NCBI GenBank assembly: GCA_040220855.1
Contig: JAVJVZ010000023.1
Location: 22,102 to 86,101 of the forward strand
Direction: 5' to 3'
DNA from: Gammaproteobacteria bacterium
GTDB taxonomy: Bacteria > Pseudomonadota > Gammaproteobacteria > Ga0077536
DNA: 64,000 nt
Shown here: one piece after another, positions 5,974-35,206 of the stretch
Position numbering within the stretch: the stretch's first letter is position 1
How the letters are laid out: the number at the start of each line of letters is the position of its first letter
Position numbers and translations under genes: made by a program
Notes under the pieces: generated by a model
The model's input: the letters and a program-made list of their open reading frames with translations, nothing else
Databases searched by the model: none
Told to the model about the DNA's origin: nothing

Positions 5974-6114
5974 CGCCGCTGCATCCCGCCTGGCGGCATT
6001 GCTCGTCGGTTGAACAGCGCGCTGTTCGGCCTCCTCGCGCCTTGCCAGACGGGCGCCCCGATGCGCCGGTTGGCCATCCTGTTTCGACCAGTGCCCTGAG
6101 CGCGCGCATTGTGC

Positions 6115-6795: not shown

Positions 6796-6948
6796 TGCCG
6801 TCTCTCCCTGGGCGGACCGGCGGCGATTATGCCCGCCCTGCGGCACCCCCGGTGCCGGCATTACGAAAAGTTAATGTCCGGGAAAGCATCGTGTAATCCA
6901 CCAGCCCCTACCTTATGCGCAACGCCAACCTGATTGAAGGAGCACACC

Positions 6949-14760: not shown

Positions 14761-14928
14761 CGTCTCCCTCCCCTCTGTGGGCCAGCATGGTGCGGCATGA
14801 TGGCAGAAATGCGCGCGGCACGGGGCCGCGCGATGCGGGCGGCGACACCCTACGCAGCGCGTCGGCCCGCCGTCAACGCGTAGCCACGCGCGGCGCCGCG
14901 ACTGTCCGCGCCTGCGACAGCCGCACGT

Positions 14929-16119
14929 TCACTGCGGGGCGGGGCCGGCGGCGCGTCGGCGTGCCCCGGCAAGCAACAGCAGGCTGCCGGCGACGGCGGC
15001 CGCGAGGGAGCCGATCAATACGCCGATACGCGTCGCGCCGACATAGTCGAAGGCACCGCGTTCGAAGGCCAGGTTGCCGATGAACAGGCTCATCGTGAAG
15101 CCGATGCCGGCAAGCACGCACACGCCGTAGAAGCTGCGCCAGTCGGCGCCCTCCGGCAGGCGCGCGAGACCCAGCCGGATGGCGACCCAGCACACCGCGA
15201 ACACGCCCAGCTGCTTACCGAGGAACAGTCCGCTCGCGATGCCGAGCGGCACCGCGCTGACGACGAGCGCGGGGTCGAGACCCTTGAACGGCACGCCGGC
15301 ATTGACGAAGGCGAACACCGGCAGCACGAGGTAGGCGACCCACGGGTGCAGCGCGTGCTCAAGCCAGCGTAGCGGCGAATGGCCACGCGCGTCCGCGGCG
15401 AGCGGAATGCAGAGCGCAACGACGACGCCCGCCAGCGTGGCGTGCACGCCGGACTTGAGTACACCCACCCAGACCACGACACCGATCAGCAGGTAGGGGA
15501 TGATCGAGCGCACACCGCTGCGGTTGAGCGCGACGAGCGCGACGATCCCGCCGCCGGCGACGGCCAGCGCGCCAAGGGACAGATCGGCGGTATAGAAAAT
15601 GGCAATGACGATGATCGCGCCGAGGTCGTCGAAGATCGCAAGCGAGGTCAGGAACATGCGCAGGGATTGCGGGACGCGCGAGCCCAGCAGCGAGAGCACG
15701 CCGAGCGCGAAGGCGATATCGGTCGCGGCCGGAATGGCCCAGCCCTGGCGCGCCGCAGGGTCATCGTGGGTGAAAGCGAGGTAGATCAGCGCAGGCAGCA
15801 CGAAGCCGCCGATGGCACCGAGACCGGGCAACAGGATCTGGGAGCGATTGGAGAGTTCCCCCTCGAGCACCTCGCGCTTGATTTCGAGGCCGACGAGCAG
15901 GAAGAACACCGCCATCAGGCCATCGTTGACCCACAGGAAGAGTGGCTTGTCGATGCCGACGCCATCCACCAGTACGGCGAGGTGGACGATCAGCAGGCGG
16001 TCGTACCAGATTGCAAGCGGGGTGTTGCTGGCGAGCAGCGCGGCGGCGGTCGCCGCCATCAGCAGGATGCCGGCAGCCGCCTCGAGACGCAGGAACTCAC
16101 GGATCAGTGACAGTGGCAT
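14929..16119 (-). CDS. nhaA: Na+/H+ antiporter NhaA
   Basis: Twelve-TM profile with conserved NhaA segments (LAIFDDLGAI, FFLLVGLEIKRE). Start re-picked at MPLSLIREF; the upstream part of the ORF is a read-through of the MITE inverted repeat. Confidence 0.85.
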   Translation of the reverse strand: MPLSLIREFLRLEAAAGILLMAATAAALLASNTPLAIWYDRLLIVHLAVLVDGVGIDKPLFLWVNDGLMAVFFLLVGLEIKREVLEGELSNRSQILLPGLGAIGGFVLPALIYLAFTHDDPAARQGWAIPAATDIAFALGVLSLLGSRVPQSLRMFLTSLAIFDDLGAIIVIAIFYTADLSLGALAVAGGGIVALVALNRSGVRSIIPYLLIGVVVWVGVLKSGVHATLAGVVVALCIPLAADARGHSPLRWLEHALHPWVAYLVLPVFAFVNAGVPFKGLDPALVVSAVPLGIASGLFLGKQLGVFAVCWVAIRLGLARLPEGADWRSFYGVCVLAGIGFTMSLFIGNLAFERGAFDYVGATRIGVLIGSLAAAVAGSLLLLAGARRRAAGPAPQ

Positions 16120-22459: not shown

Positions 22460-22634
22460 GCGCGCATCCGTGCGACGGCGGCGAGGCCGCACCGCGGCGG
22501 CGGGGCGCGGGCAGCACCCACCGTCGCACGACCCCGTTTGCGTGTCGCGGTGCCGCGGCTCAGCCGCGTCGCGTTGGCCCGACTCGCGCAATGCCACGCG
22601 TCGGCCGACCACGAGACAACGAGCAATTGCGAAT

Positions 22635-22670
22635 TATATAAACGCAAATGATAATGCGTCGCGTTTATAT
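22635..22670. promoter_or_regulatory. Fur-box-like palindromic element upstream of the TonB-dependent receptor
   Basis: ATAAACGCAAATGATAATGCGTCGCGTTTAT contains an AATGATAAT core inside an 8-bp inverted repeat, in an AT-rich patch of a 70% GC genome. Confidence 0.45.
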
Positions 22671-22672
22671 TC

Positions 22673-25345
22673 TTGCGATTTCCGATGCCCGTGCCGCCAG
22701 CTCCCCGCACCCGTGCACCGCGCCGGCCGACGCTCGGCCCGCGCCGCCCGCGGGCACACCGTCTCGCCGCCATCACCGCCCTTGGTGTGTGGCTCATGGC
22801 GGCCTCCGGCATGGACGCCACGATGGCGGCCGATCGCCTCGATGGCCATGGTGACGGCGAGGCCGTCGACGCCGCGGGCAGGGCGGCGCCGGCACCGGCC
22901 GCGGCAGGCGATGACGACGGTAATAGCGACGCCAACGACGACGGCCGCGATGGCGCTCGCGGCGACAGCGCGCAGCGTCACGCCCCCGGCACGCGCAAGG
23001 TCGAGGAAATCGTCGTCCGCGGGGTCCGGGAGAGCGCCTACGACCCGAACCTCGAACCGACCGATTCGGCCAACCTGCTGGATTTCGAAGATTTGCGCCG
23101 CACGCAATCGCCGGACGTCTTCGACGCCGTGCGCGACCTGCCCGGCGTGAGCGTCGAGGGCGGCCCGCGCACCAGCGGCAAGCGCTTCGCCATTCGCGGC
23201 TTCTCCGACAACGAGGACGTCCTCGTACGCATCGACGGCGTCACGCAGAATTTCGAGAAGTACCGCTACGGCGCCGGCGTCGACATCGAGCCCGAACTGC
23301 TCAAGCAGGTCGCCGTGCACCGCGGCGGCGCGGCCATCACGCAGGGCTCGGGTTACCTCGGCGGCGTGGTCGAGATGGAGACGGTCGACGCTGCCGACCT
23401 GCTCGCGCCCGGGCAGCGCCTCGGCGGGCAGGCCAGGCTCGGCTACCTCAGCAACAACGAGGGCAAGCTCTACTCGGGCAGCGCCTATGCCCGCCCCCTC
23501 GACTTCCTCGATGCGCTCGTCAACGTCACGCGGCGCGATTCGCGCGACTACGAGCTGCCGGACGGCAGCCGCTTCCCCGATTCCGCCGAGGCGCAGACGA
23601 GCGTCCTCGGCAAGCTCGAGCTGTCCTCGGACAGCGCGACCCTCGGTATCAGTCACCGTCGCGCCGAGCAGAGCGGCCAGCAGCCCTTCGACATCACCGG
23701 CGGCATCACGGGCATCGGCGGCCTCGTCCTGCGCGATACCTCGGAAGCGGCCACCGCGCTCCGCTTCGACTGGGACCCGGCCACCGAGTGGGTCGCGCTG
23801 GACGCCACCCTCGGCTTCATCGACAAGCAGGTGATCGATGCCAACAGCGCGATTGCCGGCGTCGACGACGCTGGCAATCCGGTCGGCACCGACCGCTTCG
23901 CCTACCAGATCTGGACCACCGGCATCGGCAACCGCGCGCGCTTCGGGCTCGGCCCGACCCGCCACGAGCTCGCTTTCGGGTGGCAGGGGAACCGCGAGCG
24001 CCGCGTCGCGACGCGCGATAACCTCGCAGGCAACGCGTTCAACCCTGCTCAACCTTCGGGCGAGAAGCGCAGCCACGGCGTCTATGCCCTGCACCGCGTG
24101 CGCTGGGGCGGCCTCACTGTCGAGGGTGGTCTGCGCCGCGACTGGTTCGACATCGCCGCCGGCCCCGCCGAGCGACGCGTGCTGAGCGCCCGCGGCGAAC
24201 CGGACAAGGTGTCCTACGCGCTCGATTCACCGGTCTTCTCGATCGCCTTCGCGCACGGCCCGGCGGAGGTCTTCTACCATTGGGGCGAGAGCTTCCGCGT
24301 GCCGCTCCTGGACGAGCTGTTCCAGCGCGGCAACTTCAGCGCCTGCGTCGAGTTCACCGCATTTGCCCGGGCGCCCACGGCGCCGGTCTTTCCCGCCCTG
24401 CCACCGCAGCCGCAGGTCAGCTTTCCGCCCACGCCACAGCTCGCCGACTTCGGCTTCGACGCCGTGGCGTGGCTTGCCGCGCTCGATGCCTGGAACGCCG
24501 CCGTCGCGCAGGCGACCGCGACGCTGGCGGCCTGGGCCGAGGCCATCGCTGCCCTGCGCGCGGGCTACGACCGCGACCTCGACGCGTTCGAGGACGCGCT
24601 CGCCGCCTACCTCGACGACCCGAACGCGGATCGCAACGCGATGTGCGGCGACCGTTACCGCCCGGAGACCGCGACGACGCGCGAGGCCGGCTTCGTCCTC
24701 GACTTCGACAGCGTACTGCACGAAGCGGACGCGTTGTCGCTCAAGTTCACCTACTACGACATTCGCGTCGGCAATCTCATCGAGTCCATCTATGAAGACA
24801 GCGTGACCGGCGCCATCGGCCAGCCCGGCCGCGAGGTTCGCAAGGGCTTCGAGGTCGAGGCTCGCTACGACCAGCCCCGCTGGTACGCGCGCTTCGCGCT
24901 GACCACGCTCGACGGTTACATCAAGTACGGTTTTTTCGCGAACAATGTCGATCCCGATATCGCGCGCTTCACCGATCCGGGACGCTTCGAGCTGTTCAAC
25001 GTGCCAGCCGACAATTTCAACCTGACGCTCGCGGTGACGCCGCGTCACGATCTCGAAATAGGCCATCGCCTGCGCGTATTCGCGCCGCGCCTCGTCACCG
25101 TCGGCTTCGAACCCGGCTGCGTCGGCACGCTGTTCACCAACCCCGTGTGCAGCGTCTTCGGCGAGCAGCACGGCTACATGACGTCGAACTTCTTCCTGAG
25201 CTGGCGGCCGCACCCGTCGGTCGACCTGCGCCTGACCGTCGATAACGCCCTCAACAAGGAATTTCAGAATACCGGCTTCGGGGGCGCGCTCGGCGCCATC
25301 GCGCCGGGCCGGGACATCCGCGCCAGCGTGCTGCTGCGCTACTGA
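22673..25345 (+). CDS. TonB-dependent outer-membrane receptor (probable heme/iron-complex receptor)
   Basis: Plug-domain TonB-box-like EEIVVRGV, beta-barrel repeats, an FRVP (FRAP-like) motif. Adjacent to a hmuTUV operon. The true start may be an internal Met. Confidence 0.85.
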   Translation: MRFPMPVPPAPRTRAPRRPTLGPRRPRAHRLAAITALGVWLMAASGMDATMAADRLDGHGDGEAVDAAGRAAPAPAAAGDDDGNSDANDDGRDGARGDSAQRHAPGTRKVEEIVVRGVRESAYDPNLEPTDSANLLDFEDLRRTQSPDVFDAVRDLPGVSVEGGPRTSGKRFAIRGFSDNEDVLVRIDGVTQNFEKYRYGAGVDIEPELLKQVAVHRGGAAITQGSGYLGGVVEMETVDAADLLAPGQRLGGQARLGYLSNNEGKLYSGSAYARPLDFLDALVNVTRRDSRDYELPDGSRFPDSAEAQTSVLGKLELSSDSATLGISHRRAEQSGQQPFDITGGITGIGGLVLRDTSEAATALRFDWDPATEWVALDATLGFIDKQVIDANSAIAGVDDAGNPVGTDRFAYQIWTTGIGNRARFGLGPTRHELAFGWQGNRERRVATRDNLAGNAFNPAQPSGEKRSHGVYALHRVRWGGLTVEGGLRRDWFDIAAGPAERRVLSARGEPDKVSYALDSPVFSIAFAHGPAEVFYHWGESFRVPLLDELFQRGNFSACVEFTAFARAPTAPVFPALPPQPQVSFPPTPQLADFGFDAVAWLAALDAWNAAVAQATATLAAWAEAIAALRAGYDRDLDAFEDALAAYLDDPNADRNAMCGDRYRPETATTREAGFVLDFDSVLHEADALSLKFTYYDIRVGNLIESIYEDSVTGAIGQPGREVRKGFEVEARYDQPRWYARFALTTLDGYIKYGFFANNVDPDIARFTDPGRFELFNVPADNFNLTLAVTPRHDLEIGHRLRVFAPRLVTVGFEPGCVGTLFTNPVCSVFGEQHGYMTSNFFLSWRPHPSVDLRLTVDNALNKEFQNTGFGGALGAIAPGRDIRASVLLRY

Positions 25346-25392: not shown

Positions 25393-26211
25393 TCAACCGC
25401 GTCGGCGCGCGCGCCGGAGCAGCATGCCTGCACTGGCGACGAGCAGCCAGCCGGCCGGCAGCGGCACCGGCTGCGTGCTGCCGGTACCGCCGCTGCCGCC
25501 CGGGCCACCGGCCACCGCCTGCGGACCGATGTCGACGGCGACCGCGTCGAGGCTCAGGCTGGTGTCGGCAGCCGCGAAGGCGAACGCGTAGGTGCCGAGC
25601 GCGACCGGCAGCTCCCACAGGTACAGGTATTCGTTGTCGACGCCGGTGCCGCCGTCGGTCCCGCCCGGGGCGCTGGAATTTCCCGTCGCGAGTGTCACGC
25701 GCTGCGACCACGCGGCGCCGTTCAGCCTGACGCTCGCGTGGTCGATATCGGCGCCGAGTGCAGAGACCTGCAGTGCCGCGGTGATCGGCCGCACGCCAAG
25801 CGCCGTGTGCGCGCTCGCCGGACTCACGACCAGCTGGAAGGCGAGCTCGTCGTTGAAGCTGTAGATGTTCCCGCTACCGGTGATGAAGGCGGCGGGTTGC
25901 GCGGTGGAACCCTTCTTGCCCGTAACGAGAATGCTGCCATTGTTGGCGGCGAGACCGAGCGCGCCGCGGTCCGGCGTGCTGTCCGGCAGGACCGGCGCGA
26001 CCCCGATGTCGGGCTCGTTACGAAAGCGGTCGTAATGGACGTATGCGCTGCCAGCGCTGCCGCGCGTCCAGTCCCCCCACGCCGCGGTGGCCGGATCCTG
26101 GAACGCGACCGCTGCTGCGTCGACACTCGTATGGAAGAGCGCGCCGAGCGCGGCGCAGGCGAACAGGGAAACAGGTCGGAACACGGTACTTCTCCTCGAC
26201 AACGGACCCAT
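25393..26211 (-). CDS. Secreted hypothetical protein with a C-terminal VPLPA-CTERM (PEP-CTERM-like) sorting signal
   Basis: Signal peptide. The C-terminus ...VPLPAGWLLVASAGMLLRRARRRG is motif + TM helix + Arg cluster. Paralog of 31222..31959 (shared WGDWTRG.AG..Y..DF and NIYSFN/NLYNFG blocks). The N-terminal 173 codons of ORF 25393..26730 were rejected as an extension. Confidence 0.7.
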   Translation of the reverse strand: MGPLSRRSTVFRPVSLFACAALGALFHTSVDAAAVAFQDPATAAWGDWTRGSAGSAYVHYDRFRNEPDIGVAPVLPDSTPDRGALGLAANNGSILVTGKKGSTAQPAAFITGSGNIYSFNDELAFQLVVSPASAHTALGVRPITAALQVSALGADIDHASVRLNGAAWSQRVTLATGNSSAPGGTDGGTGVDNEYLYLWELPVALGTYAFAFAAADTSLSLDAVAVDIGPQAVAGGPGGSGGTGSTQPVPLPAGWLLVASAGMLLRRARRRG

Positions 26212-26237
26212 GAGCGGGCGGCGAACTGAGTGTAAGT

Positions 26238-26290
26238 AAGAATGATTCGTACTACTAGTATTCTTTTTCGTGATTGCGCACAATTGCGCG
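26238..26290. promoter_or_regulatory. AT-rich divergent promoter with inverted repeat AAGAAT-N16-ATTCTT and tandem ATTGCG half-sites (candidate Fur/iron operator)
   Basis: aagaatgattcgtactactagtattctt ... gattgcgcacaattgcgcg lies between the VPLPA protein (-) and the hutZ-like gene (+). Confidence 0.35.
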
Positions 26291-26334
26291 GGCGCCGCGC
26301 CGGCGCCCCGACCCCCATCGACCAGGAGCCGACG

Positions 26335-26862
26335 ATGAACGCACCGACCACCCCGCTCGAGGACGTTGCCCGCGAGGCGCGCGGATTTCGCGATAGCTTT
26401 CGCACCCTCCATCTCGCGACCGCCGGCGCCGACGGCACGCCGAGTGCGAGCTATGCGCCTTTCGCGCTGTCGAGCGATGACCGGTTCCAGGTCTACGTCA
26501 GCGAGCTGGCCGCCCACACCGCGAACCTTTTGCGCGGCACACCGGTGAGTGTGCTGATCATCGAGTCCGAGCATGACGCCGCGCACCTCTTCGCCCGCAA
26601 GCGCCTGACGTTCACCTGCGCCCCGCAGCACTGTCCGCGCGGCAGCGATGCGTTCGAAGCGGTGCTCGCCGGTCTCGAAGAACGCTTCGGCGAGTTCATG
26701 GGCTACCTCCGTACCCTCACCGACTTCCATGCGTTCACGCTAGAAGCGCGCCACGCGACCTACGTGCGCGGCTTCGCCCAGGCTTACGAGTTCCCGGACG
26801 GTCGCCTCGAGACCATTCGTCACGTCAACGACCGCGGCCACGCCGCCGACGACGAGAACTGA
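26335..26862 (+). CDS. Heme-utilization protein HutZ-like (pyridoxamine 5'-phosphate oxidase split-barrel family)
   Basis: 176 aa, PNPOx-like fold pattern. Position as first gene of the hmuTUV operon. AGGAG RBS. Confidence 0.7.
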   Translation: MNAPTTPLEDVAREARGFRDSFRTLHLATAGADGTPSASYAPFALSSDDRFQVYVSELAAHTANLLRGTPVSVLIIESEHDAAHLFARKRLTFTCAPQHCPRGSDAFEAVLAGLEERFGEFMGYLRTLTDFHAFTLEARHATYVRGFAQAYEFPDGRLETIRHVNDRGHAADDEN

Positions 26863-26866
26863 GCCG

Positions 26867-27721
26867 ATGCGCCTGCGTCTTCTGTCCACCGCCGGTCTCG
26901 CGCTCGCGCTCGCGCTCGGACTGCTCGCACCGCTGGCAACCGCCGCCGAGCGCATCGTCGCCGTCGGCGGCGCGGTGACGGAGATCGTCTTCGCGCTCGG
27001 CGCCGGTGACCGCCTCGTCGCCGTCGATACGACCAGCCGCTTTCCCGACGCGGCCACGCGCCTGCCGGACGTCGGCTACCTGCGCACGCTGTCGGCCGAA
27101 CCCATCCTCGCCTTGCGGCCCGACCTCGTGCTGCATGCCGCGGATGCCGGTCCACCCGAGGCGCTCGCGCAGCTCCGCGCAGCCGGTGTGCCGCTCGTCG
27201 CCATCCCGGATGCGCCGAGCGCGGCGGGTGTCGAGGACAAGATTCGCGCCACCGCCGAGGCGCTCGGTCAGGCCGACGCGGCAACCGGGCTGATCGCGCG
27301 CCTGCATCGCGAGCTTGCCGCCGCGCGCGCGGCGATCGACGCCGGCGCCACGCCGCCCAGGGTGGTGTTCGCCATGCAGTTCGACGCCGGATCGGTGCTC
27401 GCGGCCGGCCGCGAGACCGCGGCAGACGCCATCATCCGGCTCGCCGGCGGCCGCAACGTCGCCGGTGACTTCACGAGCTATAAGCCGATCGGCGCCGAAG
27501 GTCTCCTCGTCGCTCGCCCCGACGTCGTGGTCACCGTCGACCGCGCGGTGGCACAGTTCGCTCGCCCGGCCGATGCTCTCGCACTGCCGGCGCTGCGCCT
27601 GACCCCGGCCGCCGCGACCGGGCGCATCGTCGTCATGGATCCCCTGTTGCTGCTCGGTTTCGGGCCGCGTCTCGGCGAGGCAGTGACGACGCTCGCCGGC
27701 GCGCTGCACGCGGTGCCGTGA
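26867..27721 (+). CDS. hmuT: Hemin ABC transporter periplasmic substrate-binding protein (HmuT/ChuT-like)
   Basis: Signal peptide, class III (FecB-like) SBP architecture. Start is 5 nt after the hutZ stop. Confidence 0.8.
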   Translation: MRLRLLSTAGLALALALGLLAPLATAAERIVAVGGAVTEIVFALGAGDRLVAVDTTSRFPDAATRLPDVGYLRTLSAEPILALRPDLVLHAADAGPPEALAQLRAAGVPLVAIPDAPSAAGVEDKIRATAEALGQADAATGLIARLHRELAAARAAIDAGATPPRVVFAMQFDAGSVLAAGRETAADAIIRLAGGRNVAGDFTSYKPIGAEGLLVARPDVVVTVDRAVAQFARPADALALPALRLTPAAATGRIVVMDPLLLLGFGPRLGEAVTTLAGALHAVP

Positions 27722-27764
27722 GCGACGCAGGTCGCCCACCGCGCCGCCGCGCCCGCACGGCCCG

Positions 27765-28892
27765 ATGACACCCGCCGACGATCACCTCCTCGCCGCGGGT
27801 GCGCCCGCCGCCGCCGCGATACGGGCGCGGTACCTCGCGCTACCCACCCGCCGCATGCTCGTGCTCGCTGCCTGTTTCGCCTGCGCGCTCGCCGCGATAC
27901 TCGCCAACCTTGCGCTCGGTCCCGTCGTGGTGCCGCTCGCGAGCGTGCTGCGCATCCTGACCGGCACGCACGAGGCCGTCGGCGCGGACGGCGGCGTCGC
28001 CGCGAGCGTGGTGCTCGACCTGCGCGCGCCGCGCGTGGTGCAGGGACTGCTCGTCGGCGCCGCGCTCGCGGTCTCCGGGGCAGCCTTCCAGGGCCTGTTC
28101 CGCAACCCGCTCGCCGATCCCAGCCTCGTCGGCATCTCGGCCGGGGCCGCGACAGGCGCGGTCGGCTACATCGTGCTCGGCAGTGCGCTCGGCAGTGCGT
28201 TCGCGCCGCTCGCCGCGATCCCGCGCATGGCCGCGCTGCCGCTCGCGGCGATCGGCGGGGCGCTCGCCGCCGCGGCAGCGCTCTACCGGCTGGGCCGCCG
28301 CGGCAGCGACCTCGACATCGCGACCCTGCTGCTCGCGGGCATCGCCATCACCGCGCTATGCCTGTCTGCCTCGGGCCTGCTCATCTTCGTCAGCGACGAC
28401 GAGCAGCTGCGCGAGCTGAACTTCTGGTCCCTCGGCTCGCTCGCCCGCGCGCACTGGCCGGTGCTGTTGCCGGCACTGCCCTGGCTGCTCGGCGCAACCG
28501 CCTGGCTGGTGGCACGCGCCGGCGTTCTGAACGCACTCGCCCTCGGCGAAGCCGAGGCCTGGCACCTCGGCTACCGCGTAGAGCGGGTCAAGCTCGAGGT
28601 CGTCGCGCTGACCGCGACCGCGGTCGGCACCGCAGTCGCCATCGCCGGCGTGATCGGATTCATCGGTCTCATCGTGCCGCACCTGCTGCGGCTCGCGATC
28701 GGCGCAGACAACCGCTACGTCCTGGCGGGCGCCGCCGCGCTCGGCGGCGCGCTGCTGCTGGTGGCCGACCTGCTCGCACGCACGCTGGTAGTACCGGCGG
28801 AACTCCCGATCGGCATCCTGACCAGCCTGCTCGGCGGACCGTTCTTCCTGTGGCTCATGCAACGCCAGCGCTGCGCGCCCGCACTGCCGTGA
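27765..28892 (+). CDS. hmuU: Iron/hemin ABC transporter permease (FecCD family, HmuU-like)
   Basis: About 10 TM helices and FecCD conserved segments (LALGEAEAWHLGY..., TSLLGGPFFLWLM). Confidence 0.85.
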   Translation: MTPADDHLLAAGAPAAAAIRARYLALPTRRMLVLAACFACALAAILANLALGPVVVPLASVLRILTGTHEAVGADGGVAASVVLDLRAPRVVQGLLVGAALAVSGAAFQGLFRNPLADPSLVGISAGAATGAVGYIVLGSALGSAFAPLAAIPRMAALPLAAIGGALAAAAALYRLGRRGSDLDIATLLLAGIAITALCLSASGLLIFVSDDEQLRELNFWSLGSLARAHWPVLLPALPWLLGATAWLVARAGVLNALALGEAEAWHLGYRVERVKLEVVALTATAVGTAVAIAGVIGFIGLIVPHLLRLAIGADNRYVLAGAAALGGALLLVADLLARTLVVPAELPIGILTSLLGGPFFLWLMQRQRCAPALP

Positions 28893-29686
28893 TCGCGACC
28901 CACGCCCTCGGCTACGACGTCGCTGGCCGCGCGCTGCTCGCGGACTGCGAGCTCGCCTTCACGGGCGGCCGCGTGACCGCGGTCCTCGGCCCCAACGGCG
29001 CCGGCAAGTCGACCCTGCTGCGCCTGCTGACGGGTGAGCGGCGTCCGAGCCACGGCGAGGTGCGCGTCGACGGGCGCGCCCTGGACACCTGGACACCCGC
29101 AGCGCTCGCGCGGGTGCGGGCAGTCGTCACCCAGTTCAACCACGTCGCGTTCCCGTTCACGGCCGCCGAGATTGTTGCGCTCGGTCGCGCCCCGTGGCGG
29201 CGCAGCGATACGCGCGCCGCCCGCGCGGCGGCCGTCGAGGCCGCGCTCGCGCGGCTCGAGGTCGGGCATCTCGCGGGGCGTCTCTACCCGACCCTGTCCG
29301 GCGGCGAGCAGCAGCGGGTGGCCATCGCGCGCGCGCTCGCCCAGCTCGACTGGCCACGGGCCGGCGGCGCGCGCTGCCTGCTGCTCGACGAGCCGAGCGC
29401 GAGCCTCGACCTGCATCACCAGCACGCGCTCATGGCGTTGCTGCGCGAGCTCGCGACACAGGGCGTGACGGTGGTGGTCGTCCTGCACGACCTGAACCTG
29501 GCGCTCGGCTATTGCGACGAGGTGGTATTACTGCGCGAGGGCCGCGTCGCCGCCACCGGCGCCACCGCCGCCACCCTCACCCCGGCGCTCGTCGAGGCCG
29601 TCTACCGCGTCGCCGCCGAACAGTTCGAAACCCCCGACGGTGGCGTCTTTCTCGTCGCCCGTCGCGCCGTGGAGTACGCCGCATGA
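28889..29686 (+). CDS. hmuV: Hemin ABC transporter ATP-binding protein (HmuV-like)
   Basis: Walker A GPNGAGKST, ABC signature LSGGEQQRV, Walker B LLLDEP. GTG start overlapping the hmuU stop (GTGA). Confidence 0.85.
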   Translation: MIATHALGYDVAGRALLADCELAFTGGRVTAVLGPNGAGKSTLLRLLTGERRPSHGEVRVDGRALDTWTPAALARVRAVVTQFNHVAFPFTAAEIVALGRAPWRRSDTRAARAAAVEAALARLEVGHLAGRLYPTLSGGEQQRVAIARALAQLDWPRAGGARCLLLDEPSASLDLHHQHALMALLRELATQGVTVVVVLHDLNLALGYCDEVVLLREGRVAATGATAATLTPALVEAVYRVAAEQFETPDGGVFLVARRAVEYAA

Positions 29687-30330
29687 ATCCCGATCCGCAC
29701 ACGACCGCACGCCGCCTGCTGCTCGGCAGCGCGTCGGCCCGCTTTACCGCCGTTGCGCGCGGCAGCGCCGCGTCGACGCCTTTCTGCCTCGCGCCCGACG
29801 GCACGCCCCTGCTCGAGGCGACTGCCGGTGCCGCCGTCAGCATCGCGCTCGGCGCCGCGGGCGACACATTCGCACTCGTCCTGCGCGGACGGGCCATCCC
29901 GCTCGCCGCGGCCGAGGACGCGAGTCTCGCGCGCTGGCGGCGACACCATCCGGCGCATGCGCGCCCGCCCGTGCGCCTCGCCGAGCCGCATGCCCTGCTG
30001 TGCGCCGCGGGCGGGCAGCATGCGCTGGACTACTTTGCGCTGGTGCGTGATGCGCTGTTCGACTGGGCTAGCGAGACGCGCATGGTCGAGCACATGAACG
30101 ACGATCACCTCGACGCGCTGCGCGATTACTGCGCACACGCCGGGGTCTCCTGCACACGCGTGGCGCCGCTGATGGCCGGCGTCGACGTCGACGGCTTCTT
30201 CGTGCTTGCCGACGAGGGGGCGGCTCGCTTCGATTTCCCGGCGCCCTGCCCCAGCCCGCTCGCGGTGCGCAAGGCGCTCGTCGCCCTCGCGCAGGCGGCG
30301 CGCGCAGCTGAGCGCGCAGACGGCGATTGA
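29683..30330 (+). CDS. DUF2470-domain heme-utilization-associated protein (HugZ N-domain-like)
   Basis: MNDDHLDALRDY motif typical of DUF2470. ATG overlaps the hmuV stop (ATGA). Confidence 0.6.
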   Translation: MNPDPHTTARRLLLGSASARFTAVARGSAASTPFCLAPDGTPLLEATAGAAVSIALGAAGDTFALVLRGRAIPLAAAEDASLARWRRHHPAHARPPVRLAEPHALLCAAGGQHALDYFALVRDALFDWASETRMVEHMNDDHLDALRDYCAHAGVSCTRVAPLMAGVDVDGFFVLADEGAARFDFPAPCPSPLAVRKALVALAQAARAAERADGD

Positions 30331-30332
30331 GT

Positions 30333-31040
30333 TCAGCGCCCGGCGGTGAGGAAGACGGGTTCGCGTGCTGGCCGCCCGCTCGCGGGATCGTAGTGGCAGC
30401 GCGCACAGATGGCCGGCGCAGGCAGCGCTGCGGGCTGTCGCGCGGTGCCGAAATCGGCGCTCGCGGCGAGCCGACCCGCGTCGTCGTACACGAAGAAGTC
30501 GACCGCCGTCGAGGTCGGCGCCCGCCGCCGCACGATCTCGGTTTCGCGCACGCTACCGTCCGGATTGAGCGTTTCGGCAACCGACATGCGCCACTGCCGA
30601 CCCGGATTGCGGTAGATGCGCCGCGGCAGGTGCTTGGCCCGGCTCGGCGAGAGGAGTTCGCTCGACCATTCACGGTAGCCGCTGGCCGCGGCGAACGCGG
30701 ACAGTGAGTCCGGCAGCACGCGGGCGGCGGCCCGCGCCACCAGGGCGGCCGCAGCATCGGCCGTGCGCGGCGCATGGCGCAGGCGACGCAGCACGCGGGC
30801 GGCTGCGCGCCGCTCGCCGGAGAGCAGCGCGAGCGTGCCCGGCGCGAGCCGTCCACCAGCGCGCACCGCCGCGTCCCCGAACAGAAACCCGAGCCAGTGC
30901 ACGCTGCAGTCGACCGCGTAGCGGCCGCCGGCCACGGCCCCTTCGCGCGGCACGAGCAGCCACCCCCGCGGCGCCTGCAACAGCACGGCGGCGAGCAGGA
31001 TGGCCGCGAGCATGCTTGCACGGTGTGCGGACAGACGCAT
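30333..31040 (-). CDS. Hypothetical secreted protein with a single C-terminal CxxCH motif (possible heme-binding protein)
   Basis: Signal peptide MRLSAHRASMLAAILLAAVLLQAP, then ...AICARCHYDPASG near the C-terminus. The N-terminal 142 codons of ORF 30333..31466 were rejected as an extension. Confidence 0.45.
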   Translation of the reverse strand: MRLSAHRASMLAAILLAAVLLQAPRGWLLVPREGAVAGGRYAVDCSVHWLGFLFGDAAVRAGGRLAPGTLALLSGERRAAARVLRRLRHAPRTADAAAALVARAAARVLPDSLSAFAAASGYREWSSELLSPSRAKHLPRRIYRNPGRQWRMSVAETLNPDGSVRETEIVRRRAPTSTAVDFFVYDDAGRLAASADFGTARQPAALPAPAICARCHYDPASGRPAREPVFLTAGR

Positions 31041-31221
31041 ACAGCTCACCGTCCCCGGGCCGCGTTCGTTCACGGGCGCCCCGCGCACGTGCGGGGCGGA
31101 GGTACGGCACCGCACCCGGGAACGCCGCCGCTGCCACCGGCGCGTCCGACTCCCGGGGGTGCCGCAGAAGGGAGCGGCAGCGGCAGGAAGGCGCCGCGAA
31201 CCCGCGTCCGGGCGCTGAACG

Positions 31222-31959
31222 TCACGACGAGCTCGCGCCCCGGACAGCGCTATGGCGCCGCGCCAGGAGACCGGCGAGCACCGGCGCGCACAGCCACGCC
31301 GCGCCGGGCAGGGGAACCGGCGCGATGTCGACTGCCGCCTGCGCGAAGGACATGTGCGGGCCGCCCTGCAAGACGAACTCGTAGCTCGCGGCGGGTGCGT
31401 CGAGCGTCCACAGGAACAGCACCTGCTCGAGCAGCACGGTGCCGAACGCCGAGGCGAACGCGGCATCCTGGAAGGTCACCACCTTGCTGTCCCATTGGGC
31501 GCCGTTGAGCGTCACCGGGGCCACGGCGTTACCGGCGTCGTCGGCTTCCAGCGGGGTGCCCCAGGTCTCGGTCTGCAGCGCGACGACGACCGGACCGTCC
31601 AGCGGACCGGCGCTGCCGTCGACCGCGATGGTCAGCACCTGCAGGCTGCCGAAGTTGTAGAGATTGCCGGTGGTGCCGGTCACGAACGTGCCGGCATTCC
31701 AGCCGAAGCTGGCCGCCGGCGTGCCGGCGCTGCCGACGTCCGGCGCCACGGGATTGGCCGCACCGAAGTCGTCCCATTCGGCGTAGAGGGTGCCAGCGTC
31801 GCCGCGCGTCCAGCCACCCCAGTCGGCGCTGTCCGGGGTTGCGAAGCCGAAACCGGGTGCATACGGATCGGGGCCGTTGGCGAAATCGGCCAGCGCCAGC
31901 GGGCTGGTCAACAGCATCACGGCGCCAGCGACGGCGGAAATGGTTTGCTTGTTCTTCAT
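31222..31959 (-). CDS. Secreted hypothetical protein with a C-terminal VPLPA-CTERM-like (PEP-CTERM family) sorting signal
   Basis: Signal peptide MKNKQTISAVAGAVMLLTSPLALA. C-terminus VPLPGAAWLCAPVLAGLLARRHS. Paralog of 25393..26211. Confidence 0.7.
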   Translation of the reverse strand: MKNKQTISAVAGAVMLLTSPLALADFANGPDPYAPGFGFATPDSADWGGWTRGDAGTLYAEWDDFGAANPVAPDVGSAGTPAASFGWNAGTFVTGTTGNLYNFGSLQVLTIAVDGSAGPLDGPVVVALQTETWGTPLEADDAGNAVAPVTLNGAQWDSKVVTFQDAAFASAFGTVLLEQVLFLWTLDAPAASYEFVLQGGPHMSFAQAAVDIAPVPLPGAAWLCAPVLAGLLARRHSAVRGASSS

Positions 31960-32029: not shown

Positions 32030-32048
32030 GACTCTAAACGATAATTAT
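32030..32048. promoter_or_regulatory. Fur-box-like 19-mer GATAATTATTCTTATTAGC upstream of the second VPLPA-CTERM gene
   Basis: About 13/19 match to the GATAATGATAATCATTATC consensus. Lies in an AT-rich patch immediately upstream of the gene start. Confidence 0.35.
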
Positions 32049-32158
32049 TCTTATTAGCAACTATGAGAAATGCGAGGTATTTCCGTGCGCGCCCGCCGGC
32101 CCCGCCCGGCCAGTCCACACGTCCGACCACCCGGGCCCGGGCCGCGCAAGCCGGCCGC

Positions 32159-33301
32159 TCACTGCAGATAGTTGCCGATCACCTCGCGCAGCCATGCCCG
32201 CGTCGCGGCTGCGTCGTAGGGCGTGCCATCGGCGTAGCTCGCCGCCCGCGCAAAGAGCCGCGCGAACAGCGGCTGACCATCGACACGTGCGGCAAGCGCA
32301 AACTCCGCGCGCGCCGCGAGGAGCTCGGCCCAGGTCGCGCGGACGTCGGCCCAGAATGGCGCCGTCGCCGCCCAGTACGCGTCGCCGGCCGAGAAATCCT
32401 GCCCGCTGACGTGCTCGTAGCGGTTCAGGCCACGTTCCTCGGCGAGCGGTGTGCCGTCGCTCGGATCACCCGCACGGTGGCGCAGCTTGCGATTGTGCTG
32501 CTCGTGCACCCAGCCCGTCGGCTGCACCACCAGGCGGTGGGTACCGAAGAGGCGGTCGTAATCGTCGCGCACGCTGAACTCGCGCCGCGGCAGCGGCCGC
32601 CCCATCGGCTCGCTGGTCCAGGTGGCGTCGCTCGCGCGATGCTGCCAGCGGCCGCGCGCGGCATAACGTGGCGCATCGTCGACCTGGTAGACGGTCTGCG
32701 TCCAGGTGCCCGCGACGGCCTCCTCGATGATTTCGCGCCAACGCCCGTCGCCACCGTAGGCGAGGCGCGTGGGGGCTTCGTAACGCCAGTCCTGCCGCCA
32801 GTGTTTCATGACGACGGGTTCGGGTTCGCCGGCGACGAACATCACCAGCAGGTGCTGCAGGCTGACGAAGCCCGGTTCGTCCGTGAGCACGTAGATGACT
32901 TCCGTGCCCCACGACCGGTAAGGGCGCGCCGGCTCGAAACCCGGGCTGAAGCCGAGCGTCTCGATGAACTCGAAGCTCGCACGGTACTCGCCGGCCAGGG
33001 CGCGAATGGCCAGGCGATCGCGTGCCTCGCCACGCGCTTCGGTCTCCTGCAGGGCCTGCCAGGCGGCGCCCGGCGTCGTCGCCAGCGTCACCGGCGCGCC
33101 GCGCGTCGTGCCCCCGCGCGGCGTCAGCGCACACCGTTCGCCAAGCATCCAGGAAAACACGTACGGTGGGCGCTCACAGGTCTCGGCTGTGGGCGTCGCG
33201 CCTGCGTACGGCGCGAGCAGCGCAAATGCGACGACCACCGCCGCGCAGAGCGGCGTCGTCAGGCCGGGGTGACGGGTAAAGCGGATTCGCTCGGTGCGCA
33301 T
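32159..33301 (-). CDS. Hypothetical secreted protein (380 aa)
   Basis: Signal peptide after MRTERIRF. No recognisable family. Fur-box-like element in its promoter. Confidence 0.5.
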   Translation of the reverse strand: MRTERIRFTRHPGLTTPLCAAVVVAFALLAPYAGATPTAETCERPPYVFSWMLGERCALTPRGGTTRGAPVTLATTPGAAWQALQETEARGEARDRLAIRALAGEYRASFEFIETLGFSPGFEPARPYRSWGTEVIYVLTDEPGFVSLQHLLVMFVAGEPEPVVMKHWRQDWRYEAPTRLAYGGDGRWREIIEEAVAGTWTQTVYQVDDAPRYAARGRWQHRASDATWTSEPMGRPLPRREFSVRDDYDRLFGTHRLVVQPTGWVHEQHNRKLRHRAGDPSDGTPLAEERGLNRYEHVSGQDFSAGDAYWAATAPFWADVRATWAELLAARAEFALAARVDGQPLFARLFARAASYADGTPYDAAATRAWLREVIGNYLQ

Positions 33302-33398
33302 TGGACATCTCCAGGAAATACGGGGTGCAGCTTCACGACAGCGTGGCACGGTGTTCCGTGCCGGCATACGCGGCGGCTGTCGGAATGGACTGGGCTAC

Positions 33399-33429
33399 TT
33401 ATTGCGAATGATTATCGATTGCAATAATC
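33399..33429. promoter_or_regulatory. Fur-box-like palindrome TTATTGCGAATGATTATCGATTGCAATAA in a divergent promoter
   Basis: 7-bp inverted arms (TTATTGC/GCAATAA) around an AATGATTAT core. Shares ATTGCGAAT-N-ATTAT with the site at 22625-22645. Confidence 0.45.
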
Positions 33430-33944: not shown

Positions 33945-34283
33945 TCAGGGGGACGCCGTGGCGCTGAAGGTGTAGCTGCGCTCGACGCGCGCCACGCGCA
34001 CCGCGTAGCCGGCATACCAGTGCGCGCGCCCGCGTTGCTGGGCTGCGCGGTGCTCGGCGTGGCGCTTCCAGGCCAGGATCGAGGCCTCGTCGCGCCAGTA
34101 GGAAACGACGATCTCGCCGCTCGCCTCGACCGCCGCCTCGACGCCGAGGAAACCCGGCATGTCGGCGACGAGTTCGAGCATGCGTGCCACCGTCTCGCCG
34201 TAGTCGCGCGTGTCCGCGCCCGGCGTCGCGGTGAAGATCACGGCGTAATAGGGCGCCTCGAGGCCCTCGAGCACGGCTGGCAT
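33945..34283 (-). CDS. Antibiotic-biosynthesis-monooxygenase (ABM) domain protein
   Basis: 112 aa ferredoxin-like ABM pattern (YYAVIFT...EIVVSYWRDEASILAWKRHAEH). Confidence 0.65.
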   Translation of the reverse strand: MPAVLEGLEAPYYAVIFTATPGADTRDYGETVARMLELVADMPGFLGVEAAVEASGEIVVSYWRDEASILAWKRHAEHRAAQQRGRAHWYAGYAVRVARVERSYTFSATASP

Positions 34284-34423
34284 GACGTTCTCCGCAGGAT
34301 CTTTGCTGGAGCTTAGCGCGCGCTACCCACGCTGCCCAGGCCGCGTGGAACCTCGCGGCGGGCCCGATGGGCTGCGCGCGTCCGCGCGCGCTACACTGCA
34401 TGCTCCCCGGTCGGAGCAAAGCA

Positions 34424-35206
34424 ATGACGCGCATCCTCACCGCCCTCGTCGTCCTCGTCGCCGGTCACACCGCCACGGCACAGCAATCCGCCGTCGACGT
34501 GTGGGAGACGCTGCTGCGTCCACACCACTTTCCGGAGGTCGAAATCATCGAGGACGGCAGCGTCATCGAACTCTCCACGCCTTACCGTTCCGAGGACGCC
34601 GCCTTCACCCCGGTACGCATCAAGGCGCGCATTCCGCAGACGCCGGAACGCTACATCGAAGCCATCCACCTGTTCGTCGACCTGAACCCCGAACCCAAGG
34701 TCGGCACCTTCACCTTCACCCCCGCGGCCGGCAGCGCCGACCTCGCATTGCGCATCCGCATCGACAAGTACACCGACGTGCGCGCGGTCGCGGTCCTCAA
34801 TACCGGCGAGCACTACATGGCGAAGAGCTACGTCAAGGCCCAGGGCGGCTGCGCGATCCCGGTCGCCATCGACTACAAGCAGGCGATGTCCGGCCTCGGG
34901 AAGGTTCAGCTGCGCACCCTCGACGGTGACGACGCGGACGGCATCGCGACCCAGTTGCGCGTCCGTCATCCGAACTTCACCGGCATGCAGATGGACTACA
35001 AGATCTACGCGGTGCGGCCGGCGCACTACGTCAACTCGATCCGCGTATTGCTGAACGGCGAGCCGGTGATGACGGCCGAGACGGGCATCTCGATTAGCGA
35101 GGATCCGAGCTTCCGCTTCTTCCTCGCGCCGCAGGCGAGTGGCGAATTGAGCGCGGAGATCACCGACACCAAGGGCAACAGCTGGACCGAGAAGCTGACG
35201 CTCTGA
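34424..35206 (+). CDS. SoxY/SoxZ-like fused sulfur-carrier protein (quinoprotein-dehydrogenase-associated SoxYZ-like carrier family)
   Basis: Signal peptide. SoxY-like N-half with a KAQGGCAIP carrier-cysteine loop, and a SoxZ-like C-half (SEDPSFRFFL). Confidence 0.55.
   Translation: MTRILTALVVLVAGHTATAQQSAVDVWETLLRPHHFPEVEIIEDGSVIELSTPYRSEDAAFTPVRIKARIPQTPERYIEAIHLFVDLNPEPKVGTFTFTPAAGSADLALRIRIDKYTDVRAVAVLNTGEHYMAKSYVKAQGGCAIPVAIDYKQAMSGLGKVQLRTLDGDDADGIATQLRVRHPNFTGMQMDYKIYAVRPAHYVNSIRVLLNGEPVMTAETGISISEDPSFRFFLAPQASGELSAEITDTKGNSWTEKLTL

What the first reader, a model, noticed from the sequence alone, without database searches (positions are those of the whole stretch)
25393..31959. Paralogous secreted proteins with VPLPA-type PEP-CTERM sorting signals, embedded in a heme-uptake locus with no sorting enzyme in sight
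Two ORFs (25393..26211 and 31222..31959, both minus strand) encode signal-peptide proteins. Their C-termini are VPLPAGWLLVASAGMLLRRARRRG and VPLPGAAWLCAPVLAGLLARRHS, each a motif + hydrophobic helix + basic cluster. This is the architecture of the PEP-CTERM family, and specifically of the VPLPA-CTERM variant. They share several conserved blocks (WGDWTRGSAGSAYVHYDRF vs WGGWTRGDAGTLYAEWDDF; NIYSFNDELAFQLVV vs NLYNFGSLQVLTIAV). They are therefore true paralogs of an uncharacterised family, not fragments. They bracket the hutZ-hmuTUV-DUF2470 heme operon, and each is adjacent to a Fur-box-like element. This suggests an iron-regulated, sortase-processed surface protein pair, possibly heme or iron binding. 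No exosortase or other cognate sorting enzyme is encoded in the window.
Basis: partly seen in the sequence, partly recalled or inferred. Interest (0 to 1): 0.78.

Follow-up and report, generated by a model that had tools for sequence, protein, structure and literature searches.

The report
Exosortase-tagged partner proteins of heme receptors
Two related secreted proteins flanking a heme-import operon belong to a large, unnamed family carrying an exosortase-type sorting tail, and its genes almost always sit beside TonB-dependent outer-membrane receptors and heme-utilisation genes, so they are probably cell-surface helpers for heme capture, which has not been tested.

Summary
Two minus-strand genes, A (25393..26211; likelier start 26184) and B (31222..31959), encode true paralogs (BLASTP E 4e-15). 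Each has a signal peptide, a roughly 190-aa beta-sandwich and a VPLP + hydrophobic helix + Arg-cluster tail. They bracket a hutZ-like/hmuTUV/DUF2470 operon next to a heme-type TonB receptor.

The tail is PEP-CTERM class at family level. 28 of 46 homologs hit TIGR03370 and 15 hit TIGR02595, some orthologs carry canonical VPEP, and NCBI already names B "VPLPA-CTERM". The two window copies themselves fell below the HMM reporting limit here.

No exosortase lies in the window. That is expected, because exosortase genes normally sit in exopolysaccharide loci.

The new result concerns the mature domain. It has no Pfam, NCBIfam or PDB relative, yet it defines about 1,000 representative proteins. In 39 species loci, 32 have a TonB receptor within 3 kb and 24 have heme genes nearby. 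A-like and B-like copies pair with different receptor clades. The same domain is also the head of an autotransporter sitting next to ExbBD and the same receptor type.

Best reading: Fur-regulated, surface-displayed ligand-capture partners of heme receptors. Heme binding itself is inferred, not shown.

The parts
22627..22662 (+). Sigma-70-like promoter (TTGCGA-17-GATAAT) overlapping a 12/19 Fur-like box (22644-22662), upstream of the TonB receptor
   Evidence: It lies in one of six AT-rich islands of the window.
22673..25345 (+). TonB-dependent receptor, here called 'type 1'. Its best family is the heme/hemoglobin receptor family.
   Evidence: Plug + beta-barrel. TIGR01785 TonB-hemin E 2.4e-68, 231 bits, below the curated cut-off of 317. 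Orthologs sit next to A-like genes in L006, L007, L008 and L049.
25393..26211 (-). Protein A: signal peptide, beta-sandwich, Gly-rich linker, VPLPA-type tail. Likely true start is the GTG at 26184.
25393..25467 (-). C-terminal sorting signal of A (VPLPAGWLLVASAGMLLRRARRRG plus stop)
   Evidence: Predicted helix 253-271. The tail is conserved in the family.
26221..26286 (.). AT-rich divergent control region between A and the hutZ-like gene, with a conserved element AATACTAGTAGTAnGAAnCATTC
   Evidence: The element is conserved in three MAGs. It scored below 12/19 against the E. coli Fur consensus in the window (my hand count about 10-11/19) and 13/19 in the L006 ortholog region.
26242..26862 (+). 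HutZ-like PNPOx-fold heme utilisation protein
   Evidence: PF01243. TIGR04110 heme_HutZ E 2.9e-41, 141 bits, below the cut-off of 225.
26867..27721 (+). Periplasmic binding protein (HmuT-like)
   Evidence: PF01497 E 6e-38
27765..28892 (+). FecCD-family permease (HmuU-like)
   Evidence: PF01032 E 1e-84
28889..29686 (+). Heme ABC transporter ATPase (HmuV)
   Evidence: NF010068 297.7 bits, above the equivalog cut-off of 261
29683..30330 (+). DUF2470 protein (matches profile positions 1-81 of 243, the N-terminal part, of the HugZ heme-oxygenase model)
   Evidence: PF10615. Weak TIGR04109 HugZ match.
30333..31040 (-). Unknown 235-aa protein downstream of B, with an N-terminal hydrophobic segment and a conserved C-terminal CxxCH motif
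   Evidence: No Pfam or NCBIfam hit. CARCH here and CMRCH in the L008 ortholog, which also follows B.
31222..31959 (-). Protein B: signal peptide (..PLALA|DF), beta-sandwich, VPLP-type tail
31222..31317 (-). C-terminal sorting signal of B (VPLPGAAWLCAPVLAGLLARRHSAVRGASSS plus stop)
   Evidence: Predicted helix 219-243. Family conservation of V215, P216, P218, R234 and R235.
32040..32058 (.). Fur-box-like operator upstream of B (15/19, the best in the window)
   Evidence: Conserved in L008 and L009. 13-16/19 boxes lie upstream of orthologs that head a transcription unit.
32159..33367 (-). Secreted DUF6607 protein upstream of B, possibly part of the same iron-regulated island
   Evidence: PF20311 E 3.7e-66. 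Fur-like 13/19 sites at 33398-33422. A DUF6607 homolog lies 1 kb from the family gene in L047.

Best explanation
A and B are two subfamily representatives of a large, unnamed family of Sec-exported proteins. The mature part is a jelly-roll beta-sandwich of about 190 aa, capped by a strongly conserved N-terminal loop (F-x2-P-x4-W-G-x-W-x-R-G ... Y-x2-W-D-x-F). It ends in a PEP-CTERM-class (VPLPA-type) exosortase signal.

Proposed mechanism:
1. Under iron limitation, Fur repression is lifted (inferred from the operator-like boxes).
2. The proteins are exported by Sec and held in the inner membrane by the C-terminal helix.
3. They are cleaved and transferred by an exosortase encoded elsewhere in the genome (inferred from the signal class).
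4. They end up on or outside the cell surface.
5. There the beta-sandwich head captures heme or a heme-carrying ligand and passes it to a cognate TonB-dependent receptor. A-like proteins work with the receptor type encoded next to A. B-like proteins work with a second receptor clade that is absent from this window.
6. Heme then goes through HmuTUV to the HutZ-like/DUF2470 proteins.

What is shown: paralogy, family membership, tail class at family level, predicted fold, conserved gene neighbourhood and subfamily-to-receptor co-variation. What is inferred: iron regulation, exosortase processing, surface location in this organism, and heme as the ligand.
For: - Paralogy: E 4e-15.
- Tail: V215/P216/P218/R234/R235 are conserved in 132-156 of 158 family members of 200-300 aa (R235 in 102). 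A regex finds an xPxP + hydrophobic + basic tail in 148 of 188 collected members, with the middle residue V 54, E 49, L 26. 28 of 46 homologs hit TIGR03370 and 15 of 46 hit TIGR02595.
- Heme locus: HmuV passes the heme ABC ATPase equivalog cut-off, and the receptor's best family is TonB-hemin. HutZ-like and DUF2470 proteins are present.
- Synteny: of 39 species loci with at least 4 kb of flank, 32 have a TonB receptor within 3 kb, 24 have at least 2 kinds of heme genes within 8 kb, and 35 have either. In Methylococcales the order is receptor, small ORF, family gene, HemS, HutZ, HmuTUV.
- Partner co-variation: every B-like copy with an adjacent receptor has a type-2 receptor, and every A-like copy has a type-1 receptor.
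- Surface exposure: the same domain is the N-terminal head of an autotransporter (PATR + beta-domain). That gene is flanked by ExbB/ExbD and a type-1 receptor 34% identical to the window's (E 1.9e-115). The domain also heads PKD/Big_9 stalks.
- Regulation: 15/19 Fur box upstream of B; 16/19 boxes upstream of orthologs in L009, L032 and L044; conserved operators.
- Precedent: ZepA is a FUR-family-regulated, PEP-CTERM exoprotein that mediates zinc uptake and lies near TonB transporters (PMC10957091).
Against: - There is no direct evidence of heme binding.
- No His is conserved. The only candidate axial ligands are Tyr59 and Tyr101.
- The two window tails do not reach a reportable HMM score.
- No exosortase could be examined in this genome.
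- B here has no adjacent receptor.
- The Fur-like element beside A is weak.
- FecCD/BtuF-type transporters also carry cobalamin and siderophores.
- The synteny sample is rich in Methylomonas and relatives, so the 39 loci are not phylogenetically independent.
Confidence: 0.55

Rival explanations
1. Lectin-like matrix or adhesin proteins. The beta-sandwich binds a polysaccharide or a host or particle surface, as carbohydrate-binding modules do. It is merely co-regulated with iron uptake, for example to build an iron-scavenging biofilm matrix, and does not itself handle heme.
For: The nearest folds are carbohydrate-binding modules and adhesin domains. The conserved Trp/Tyr/Asn/Gln/Asp residues are typical of sugar or Ca2+ sites. 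PEP-CTERM proteins are classically linked to exopolysaccharide and floc formation (PMC1569441; PMC9850573 listed).
Against: This does not explain why the gene sits inside heme operons, between the receptor and HemS, in Methylococcales. It also does not explain why the two subfamilies track two receptor clades, or why the autotransporter form keeps the same receptor neighbour.
Confidence: 0.18
2. A partner of TonB receptors for a ligand other than free heme, for example a hemoprotein, another tetrapyrrole such as cobalamin, or a metal chelate.
For: In Nitrosospira and Nitrosovibrio the gene is paired only with a receptor and a faint CbiX-like protein, with no HemS, HutZ or HmuTUV within 10 kb. 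The window's HmuT and HmuU also resemble BtuF and BtuC. In the sister MAG, two metzincin-like proteases with the same tail follow the B ortholog, which hints at protein substrates.
Against: 24 of 39 loci carry dedicated heme utilisation genes (HemS/ChuX, HutZ) right beside the gene. HmuV passes the heme-specific equivalog cut-off, and the receptor's best family is the heme/hemoglobin one.
Confidence: 0.15
3. An inner-membrane-anchored periplasmic heme chaperone. The tail is an uncleaved membrane anchor, and the domain shuttles heme between the receptor and HmuT in the periplasm.
For: The window copies score poorly on the PEP-CTERM HMMs. No exosortase was seen. The predicted C-terminal helix plus Arg cluster would anchor the protein with the domain in the periplasm.
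Against: The domain occurs as an autotransporter passenger and on PKD/Big_9 stalks, both devices for display outside the outer membrane. The V-P-x-P motif is nearly invariant, which a plain anchor would not need. Some orthologs carry canonical PEP-CTERM tails.
Confidence: 0.08
4. Chance neighbourhood: ordinary PEP-CTERM proteins that happen to lie near a heme operon in this MAG.
For: PEP-CTERM genes are not placed next to the exosortase gene, which lies among exopolysaccharide genes (PMC1569441). B has no adjacent receptor in this window.
Against: 35 of 39 species loci keep the link to a receptor or heme genes. These include Gamma- and Betaproteobacteria, and Verrucomicrobiae MAGs that keep heme-transport genes; a Tepidisphaeraceae MAG has a receptor 93 bp away.
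Confidence: 0.03

Closest known systems
PEP-CTERM / VPLPA-CTERM exosortase substrates (TIGR02595, TIGR03370, PF07589; Haft et al. 2006, PMC1569441)
   Same: N-terminal signal peptide. The C-terminus has a Pro-containing motif (VPLP here, VPEP in some orthologs), a hydrophobic helix and an Arg cluster. Most family members hit these HMMs. NCBI already names B this way.
   Different: The window copies themselves fall below the reporting limit on the short HMMs. The mature domain matches none of the curated PEP-CTERM protein families except through the tail. Their genomic home is a heme-uptake island rather than an exopolysaccharide locus.
ZepA (All3515) of Anabaena, a Zur-regulated PEP-CTERM exoprotein for zinc uptake (PMC10957091)
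   Same: Sec signal plus PEP-CTERM tail. A beta-sandwich-containing exoprotein under a FUR-family regulator, with TonB-dependent transporters in its neighbourhood, and a proposed extracellular scavenger role for a nutrient.
   Different: ZepA is defined by an H-x(2-9)-H-[FY]-H zinc site and a two-domain fold. A and B have no such motif and no conserved His. Their context is heme, not zinc.
Hemophores and surface heme-binding partners of TonB receptors (HasA/HasR, HmuY/HmuR, hemophilin/HphA, HpuA/HpuB); listed from my general knowledge
   Same: A small secreted or surface protein encoded next to a heme-type TonB receptor and heme transport and degradation genes, apparently under iron control. 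Subfamilies track their own receptor clade, as expected for specific partners.
   Different: No sequence or fold similarity to any solved structure. Anchoring or secretion is by an exosortase signal (or an autotransporter or PKD stalk in variants) instead of type I secretion, a lipid anchor or Slam. No conserved His ligand.
Jelly-roll carbohydrate-binding modules and 'cleaved adhesin' domains

Membership tests
PEP-CTERM / VPLPA-CTERM sorting-signal proteins | N-terminal Sec signal peptide | tested here: met
   Read directly from the sequence. B is MKNKQTISAVAGAVMLLTSPLALA|DF. A is (M)FRPVSLFACAALGALFHTSVDA|AA. No dedicated signal-peptide predictor was available.
PEP-CTERM / VPLPA-CTERM sorting-signal proteins | C-terminal tripartite signal: Pro-containing motif, hydrophobic helix, basic cluster at or near the end | tested here: met
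   A ends VPLPAGWLLVASAGMLLRRARRRG. B ends VPLPGAAWLCAPVLAGLLARRHS plus 8 residues. Predicted terminal helices. The motif columns are conserved in 132-156 of 158 relatives, and R235 in 102.
PEP-CTERM / VPLPA-CTERM sorting-signal proteins | Significant match to TIGR03370, TIGR02595 or PF07589 | tested here: inconclusive
   Neither window protein, nor either tail scanned alone, is listed for these models at E <= 10 or <= 1. Only weak tail matches to other PEP-CTERM families appear, at E 0.01-0.07. However, 28 of 46 homologs hit TIGR03370 (best 1.4e-9) and 15 of 46 hit TIGR02595. NCBI names B 'VPLPA-CTERM sorting domain-containing protein' and A 'hypothetical'.
PEP-CTERM / VPLPA-CTERM sorting-signal proteins | A cognate exosortase encoded in the same genome. 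From my memory of Haft et al. 2012, the VPLPA type pairs with XrtD. | not testable with these tools
   Only 64 kb of the genome, plus about 8 kb of flank, could be read, and neither holds one.
PEP-CTERM / VPLPA-CTERM sorting-signal proteins | Proteolytic removal of the tail and export beyond the inner membrane | not testable with these tools
   This needs proteomics or fractionation.
Hemophores and heme-binding surface partners of TonB receptors | Gene linked to a heme-type TonB receptor and heme transport or degradation genes | tested here: met
   Window. Across species: 32 of 39 loci have a receptor within 3 kb and 24 of 39 have at least 2 kinds of heme genes. Subfamily-to-receptor co-variation.
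Hemophores and heme-binding surface partners of TonB receptors | Homology, by sequence or fold, to a known heme-binding family (HasA, HmuY, hemophilin/HphA, NEAT, HusA) | tested here: not met
Hemophores and heme-binding surface partners of TonB receptors | Conserved axial heme ligand (His, Tyr or Met) and demonstrated heme binding | tested here: inconclusive
   No conserved His or Met. Tyr59 (122 of 158) and Tyr101 (149 of 158) are conserved, together with Arg52, Trp50 and Trp62. Binding itself cannot be tested here.
ZepA zinc-handling exoproteins (PMC10957091) | H-x(2-9)-H-[FY]-H zinc-binding motif | tested here: not met
   The motif is absent from A and B (sequences). No His column is conserved in the family.
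ZepA zinc-handling exoproteins (PMC10957091) | Sequence homology to All3515 (at least 35% identity and at least 75% coverage, as used by the authors) | not tested

The most novel reading that the evidence does not exclude
The family is a previously unrecognised class of Gram-negative heme-capture proteins (hemophore-like or receptor-docking). It is delivered to the cell surface by the exosortase pathway, or by autotransporter or PKD-stalk scaffolds in variants. Each subfamily is matched to its own TonB-dependent heme receptor clade. It is widespread in methanotrophs, ammonia oxidisers and other environmental Proteobacteria, and extends into the Planctomycetes-Verrucomicrobia group. If so, it would be the first exosortase cargo with a defined role in heme or iron acquisition.
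Probability: 0.4. Interest if true: 0.75.

Novelty: new variant of a known kind. Interest (0 to 1): 0.62.

Why it matters
Almost no PEP-CTERM/exosortase cargo has a known molecular function. Linking a cargo family to an easily scored phenotype, growth on heme as the iron source, would give the exosortase field a tractable reporter.

For heme-uptake biology, it would add a new accessory class to the short list of hemophores and surface receptors. That class occurs in environmentally important methanotrophs and nitrifiers, where heme acquisition is little studied.

The comparative evidence already makes this directly testable. It consists of receptor adjacency in 32 of 39 species, two subfamilies tracking two receptor clades, and the same head domain on three different display scaffolds. 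Cultivable Methylomonas, Methylotuvimicrobium and Nitrosospira strains are available for the tests.

Tried and rejected
1. Direct HMM confirmation of the tails. NCBIfam and Pfam scans of the full proteins and of the isolated tails did not list TIGR03370, TIGR02595 or PF07589. I fell back on family-level scanning.
3. The AFDB50 fold library was not available.
4. A genome scan with the full A+B alignment failed for lack of a conserved stretch. I repeated it with the B-type alignment, so A-type loci are under-sampled in the genome collection.
5. A search for an exosortase in the window and one flank found none. The look-up for the other flank failed. A whole-genome test was not possible.
6. The small 82-aa ORF that precedes the gene in Methylococcales has no counterpart in the window.
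7. The lipoprotein reading of A (LFAC) was rejected. The Cys is too close to the N-terminus and is not conserved in A-type homologs.
8. ZepA homology was rejected on the missing His motif.
9. Literature searches for PEP-CTERM together with heme uptake, hemophore, iron limitation or TonB receptor found no paper describing this family. Haft et al. 2012 could not be retrieved.

Full report
**1. What is in the sequence**

The window has about 70% G+C. NCBI proteins 100% identical to A and B come from MAGs labelled 'Gammaproteobacteria bacterium'.

Both reported ORFs exist on the minus strand.
- A runs 25393..26211 from the ATG. The GTG at 26184 is preceded by AGGAG about 8 nt upstream, and it is the start used by NCBI (263 aa, MEQ8231725.1, 'hypothetical protein RLW61_05685').
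- B is 31222..31959 (245 aa). It is identical to MEQ8233180.1, which NCBI names 'VPLPA-CTERM sorting domain-containing protein'.

Each protein has a plausible Sec signal peptide. The tails are VPLPAGWLLVASAGMLLRRARRRG (A) and VPLPGAAWLCAPVLAGLLARRHS followed by AVRGASSS (B).

The two proteins align at 30% identity with E 4e-15. A tblastn of both against the window finds no third copy.

**2. The locus**

- A TonB-dependent receptor (22673..25345, +) converges on A. Its best NCBIfam family is the heme/hemoglobin receptor family, at 231 bits against a cut-off of 317.
- Diverging from A are a HutZ-like PNPOx protein, a periplasmic binding protein, a FecCD permease, an ATPase that passes the heme ABC ATPase equivalog cut-off (297.7 bits against 261), and a DUF2470 protein.
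- On the minus strand follow an unknown 235-aa protein, then B, then a DUF6607 protein.

So the 'bracketing a heme operon' description is right.

A scan for the 19-bp Fur consensus gives its best hit of the whole window (15/19) at 32040-32058, upstream of B. It gives 13/19 at 33398-33422 beside DUF6607. It gives 12/19 at 22644-22662, overlapping the -10 hexamer of a sigma-70-like promoter for the receptor.

Only six 40-bp islands with 37.5% G+C or less exist in the window, and four of them are the promoter regions of this locus.

The A/hutZ island scored below 12/19 in that scan (my hand count about 10-11/19). It does contain an element conserved across three MAGs. The B operator is likewise conserved.

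**3. The tail**

Direct scans of A, B and their isolated tails did not list TIGR03370, TIGR02595 or PF07589. They gave only weak tail matches to other PEP-CTERM families. The family settles the question:
- Of 46 homologs, 28 hit TIGR03370 (best 1.4e-9) and 15 hit TIGR02595.
- Several orthologs carry canonical PIPEP or PVPEP.
- In 158 relatives of 200-300 aa, the columns V215, P216, P218 and R234 are conserved in 132-156 sequences, and R235 in 102.
- A regex finds an xPxP + hydrophobic + basic tail in 148 of 188 collected members, with the middle residue V 54, E 49, L 26.

The tail is therefore a PEP-CTERM-class signal that drifts between the PEP and VPLPA/VPVPA flavours.

No exosortase lies in the window. 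The polytopic membrane proteins are NhaA, DUF599, an MscS-like protein and FecCD, plus a small 3-helix ORF. About 8 kb beyond the window start holds none either. This is expected: Haft et al. 2006 report that the epsH gene is nearly always found among exopolysaccharide biosynthesis genes (PMC1569441). Whether this genome has an exosortase could not be tested.

**4. The mature domain**

There is no Pfam or NCBIfam family and no PDB sequence relative at E <= 1.

AlphaFold2 gives confident models: B has pLDDT 85.3 and pTM 0.80; A has 84.7 and 0.75. Each is a beta-sandwich followed by a linker and a C-terminal helix.

A profile search of 1.84 billion representative proteins finds 1,058 members at E <= 1e-3 and 562 at E <= 1e-10.

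The best conserved residues lie mostly in the N-terminal loop that packs on the sandwich: F39, P42, W47, W50, R52, G53, Y59, W62, D63 and F65. Also conserved are N99, Y101, Q129, W184 and D211. No His is conserved.

**5. Gene neighbourhood across species**

Contexts recovered for individual homologs show two recurring orders:
- Methylomonas and a related MAG: receptor, small ORF, family gene, HemS/ChuX, PNPOx, binding protein, permease, ATPase.
- Nitrosovibrio: family gene, then receptor.

A 5.7-Mb sister MAG has the same island as the window, with A and B orthologs bracketing the transporter operon.

A scan of one genome per species returned 41 loci. They come from Methylococcales, Nitrosomonadales, Burkholderiales, Hydrogenophilales/Thiobacillus, Rhodocyclaceae, Pseudomonadales, Verrucomicrobiae and Planctomycetota. 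Of the 39 loci with at least 4 kb of flank:
- 32 have a TonB receptor within 3 kb, usually under 500 bp away;
- 24 have at least two kinds of heme utilisation or transport genes within 8 kb;
- 35 have one or the other.

The subfamilies co-vary with the receptor. Every B-like copy with an adjacent receptor sits by a 'type-2' receptor. Every A-like copy sits by a 'type-1' receptor, the window's type. The window holds only the type-1 receptor, so B's usual partner is not within these 64 kb.

Where the family gene heads a transcription unit, strong Fur-like boxes lie upstream: 16/19 in L009, L032 and L044, 14/19 in L034, and 13/19 in L008 and L006.

Caveat: many of the loci are from Methylomonas and its relatives, so the counts are not phylogenetically independent.

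**6. Other architectures**

The same head domain is found in three further settings:
- On PKD/Big_9/cadherin-like stalks.
- As the N-terminal passenger of an autotransporter (PATR repeat plus autotransporter beta-domain). That autotransporter gene is flanked by ExbB/ExbD and followed by a type-1 receptor 34% identical to the window's (E 1.9e-115).
- In the sister MAG, the B ortholog is followed by three more proteins with VPLP-type tails, two of them with metzincin HExxH motifs.

These arrangements argue that the domain works outside the outer membrane, together with the receptor.

**7. Interpretation**

The best-supported reading is that A and B are Fur-controlled, exosortase-sorted, surface or extracellular ligand-capture partners of heme-type TonB receptors.

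The closest functional precedent is ZepA, a Zur-regulated PEP-CTERM exoprotein for zinc uptake found near TonB transporters (PMC10957091). A and B lack its His motif, so they are analogues, not members.

Against known hemophores, the genomic logic is the same, but the sequences and predicted folds resemble no solved structure (no hemophore among the matches), the sorting route differs and no His ligand is conserved.

Heme binding, exosortase processing, surface location and iron regulation are all inferences. The generic carbohydrate-binding-module-like fold, and the kind of residues conserved, leave a lectin-like role open.

Literature searches found no paper linking PEP-CTERM proteins to heme uptake.

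**8. Verdict**

It is right on the signal class, the paralogy and the likely link to iron and heme. It is wrong to treat the missing exosortase as notable, and it overstates the Fur box beside A.
- The sorting signal is already annotated. The domain family, and its tight and apparently specific pairing with heme receptors, appears undescribed and is directly testable.

Noticed in passing
window 30333..31040 (-): An unknown 235-aa protein lies just downstream of B. It has an N-terminal hydrophobic segment and a C-terminal CxxCH motif (CARCH). The motif is conserved as CMRCH in the ortholog that also follows B in L008. This may be a heme-c or heme-binding protein. It has no Pfam or NCBIfam hit.
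   Followed up: partly
window 32159..33367 (-) and 33398..33422: A secreted DUF6607 protein sits upstream of B, with 13/19 Fur-like sites in its divergent promoter region. A DUF6607 homolog also lies about 1 kb from the family gene in Planctomycetales ZRK34 (L047). DUF6607 may be another iron- or heme-island component.
   Followed up: partly
window 33945..34283 (-): A 112-aa ABM-domain monooxygenase (PF03992, E 1.3e-10) sits at the edge of the island. IsdG-type heme oxygenases have this fold and size (from my general knowledge). It was not examined further.
   Followed up: no
L001 10756..13287 and 14194..15084 (sister MAG OZ257136.1): The B ortholog is followed by three further proteins with VPLP/VPVP/IPLP tails. 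Two carry metzincin motifs (HELAHILG and HELGHALGMGH). A fourth tailed protein lies next to DUF4465 and a TonB receptor. Together they form a cluster of exosortase-signal proteins inside an iron-uptake island.
   Followed up: partly
L049 2069..4750 and 4936..6939: An autotransporter whose N-terminal passenger head is the A-like family domain. It is flanked by ExbB/ExbD and a TonB receptor 34% identical to the window's.
   Followed up: yes
P0027, P0028, P0063, P0071, P0125 (family members of about 400 aa): A subgroup replaces the PEP-CTERM tail with an extension of about 180 aa that ends in a shared motif (..G.CD[VI]D....G[VI]Q.G[IM]PE[IL].[ED]GD[YF]..F[RK]R). P0027 and P0063 had no Pfam hit when scanned.
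   Followed up: no
L002 9606..9854 and equivalent positions in about 25 Methylococcales loci: A conserved cytoplasmic-looking ORF of about 80 aa (MNHSHRAHGPKKQ..EVILHCGKQYRYVVDF..) sits between the heme receptor and the family gene. It has no counterpart in the window.
   Followed up: partly
window 22673..23050 (+): The TonB receptor has an unusually long N-terminus of about 110 aa, rich in Ala, Asp, Gly and Arg, before the plug domain. The true start codon is uncertain.
   Followed up: no
window 34367..35206 (+): A fused SoxY-SoxZ protein (PF13501 + PF08770) lies just beyond the island. It is unrelated to the finding.
   Followed up: no
L007 9273..10747 and L039 5698..10651: Some genomes carry two or three tandem copies of the family gene next to one or two TonB receptors.
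   Followed up: partly
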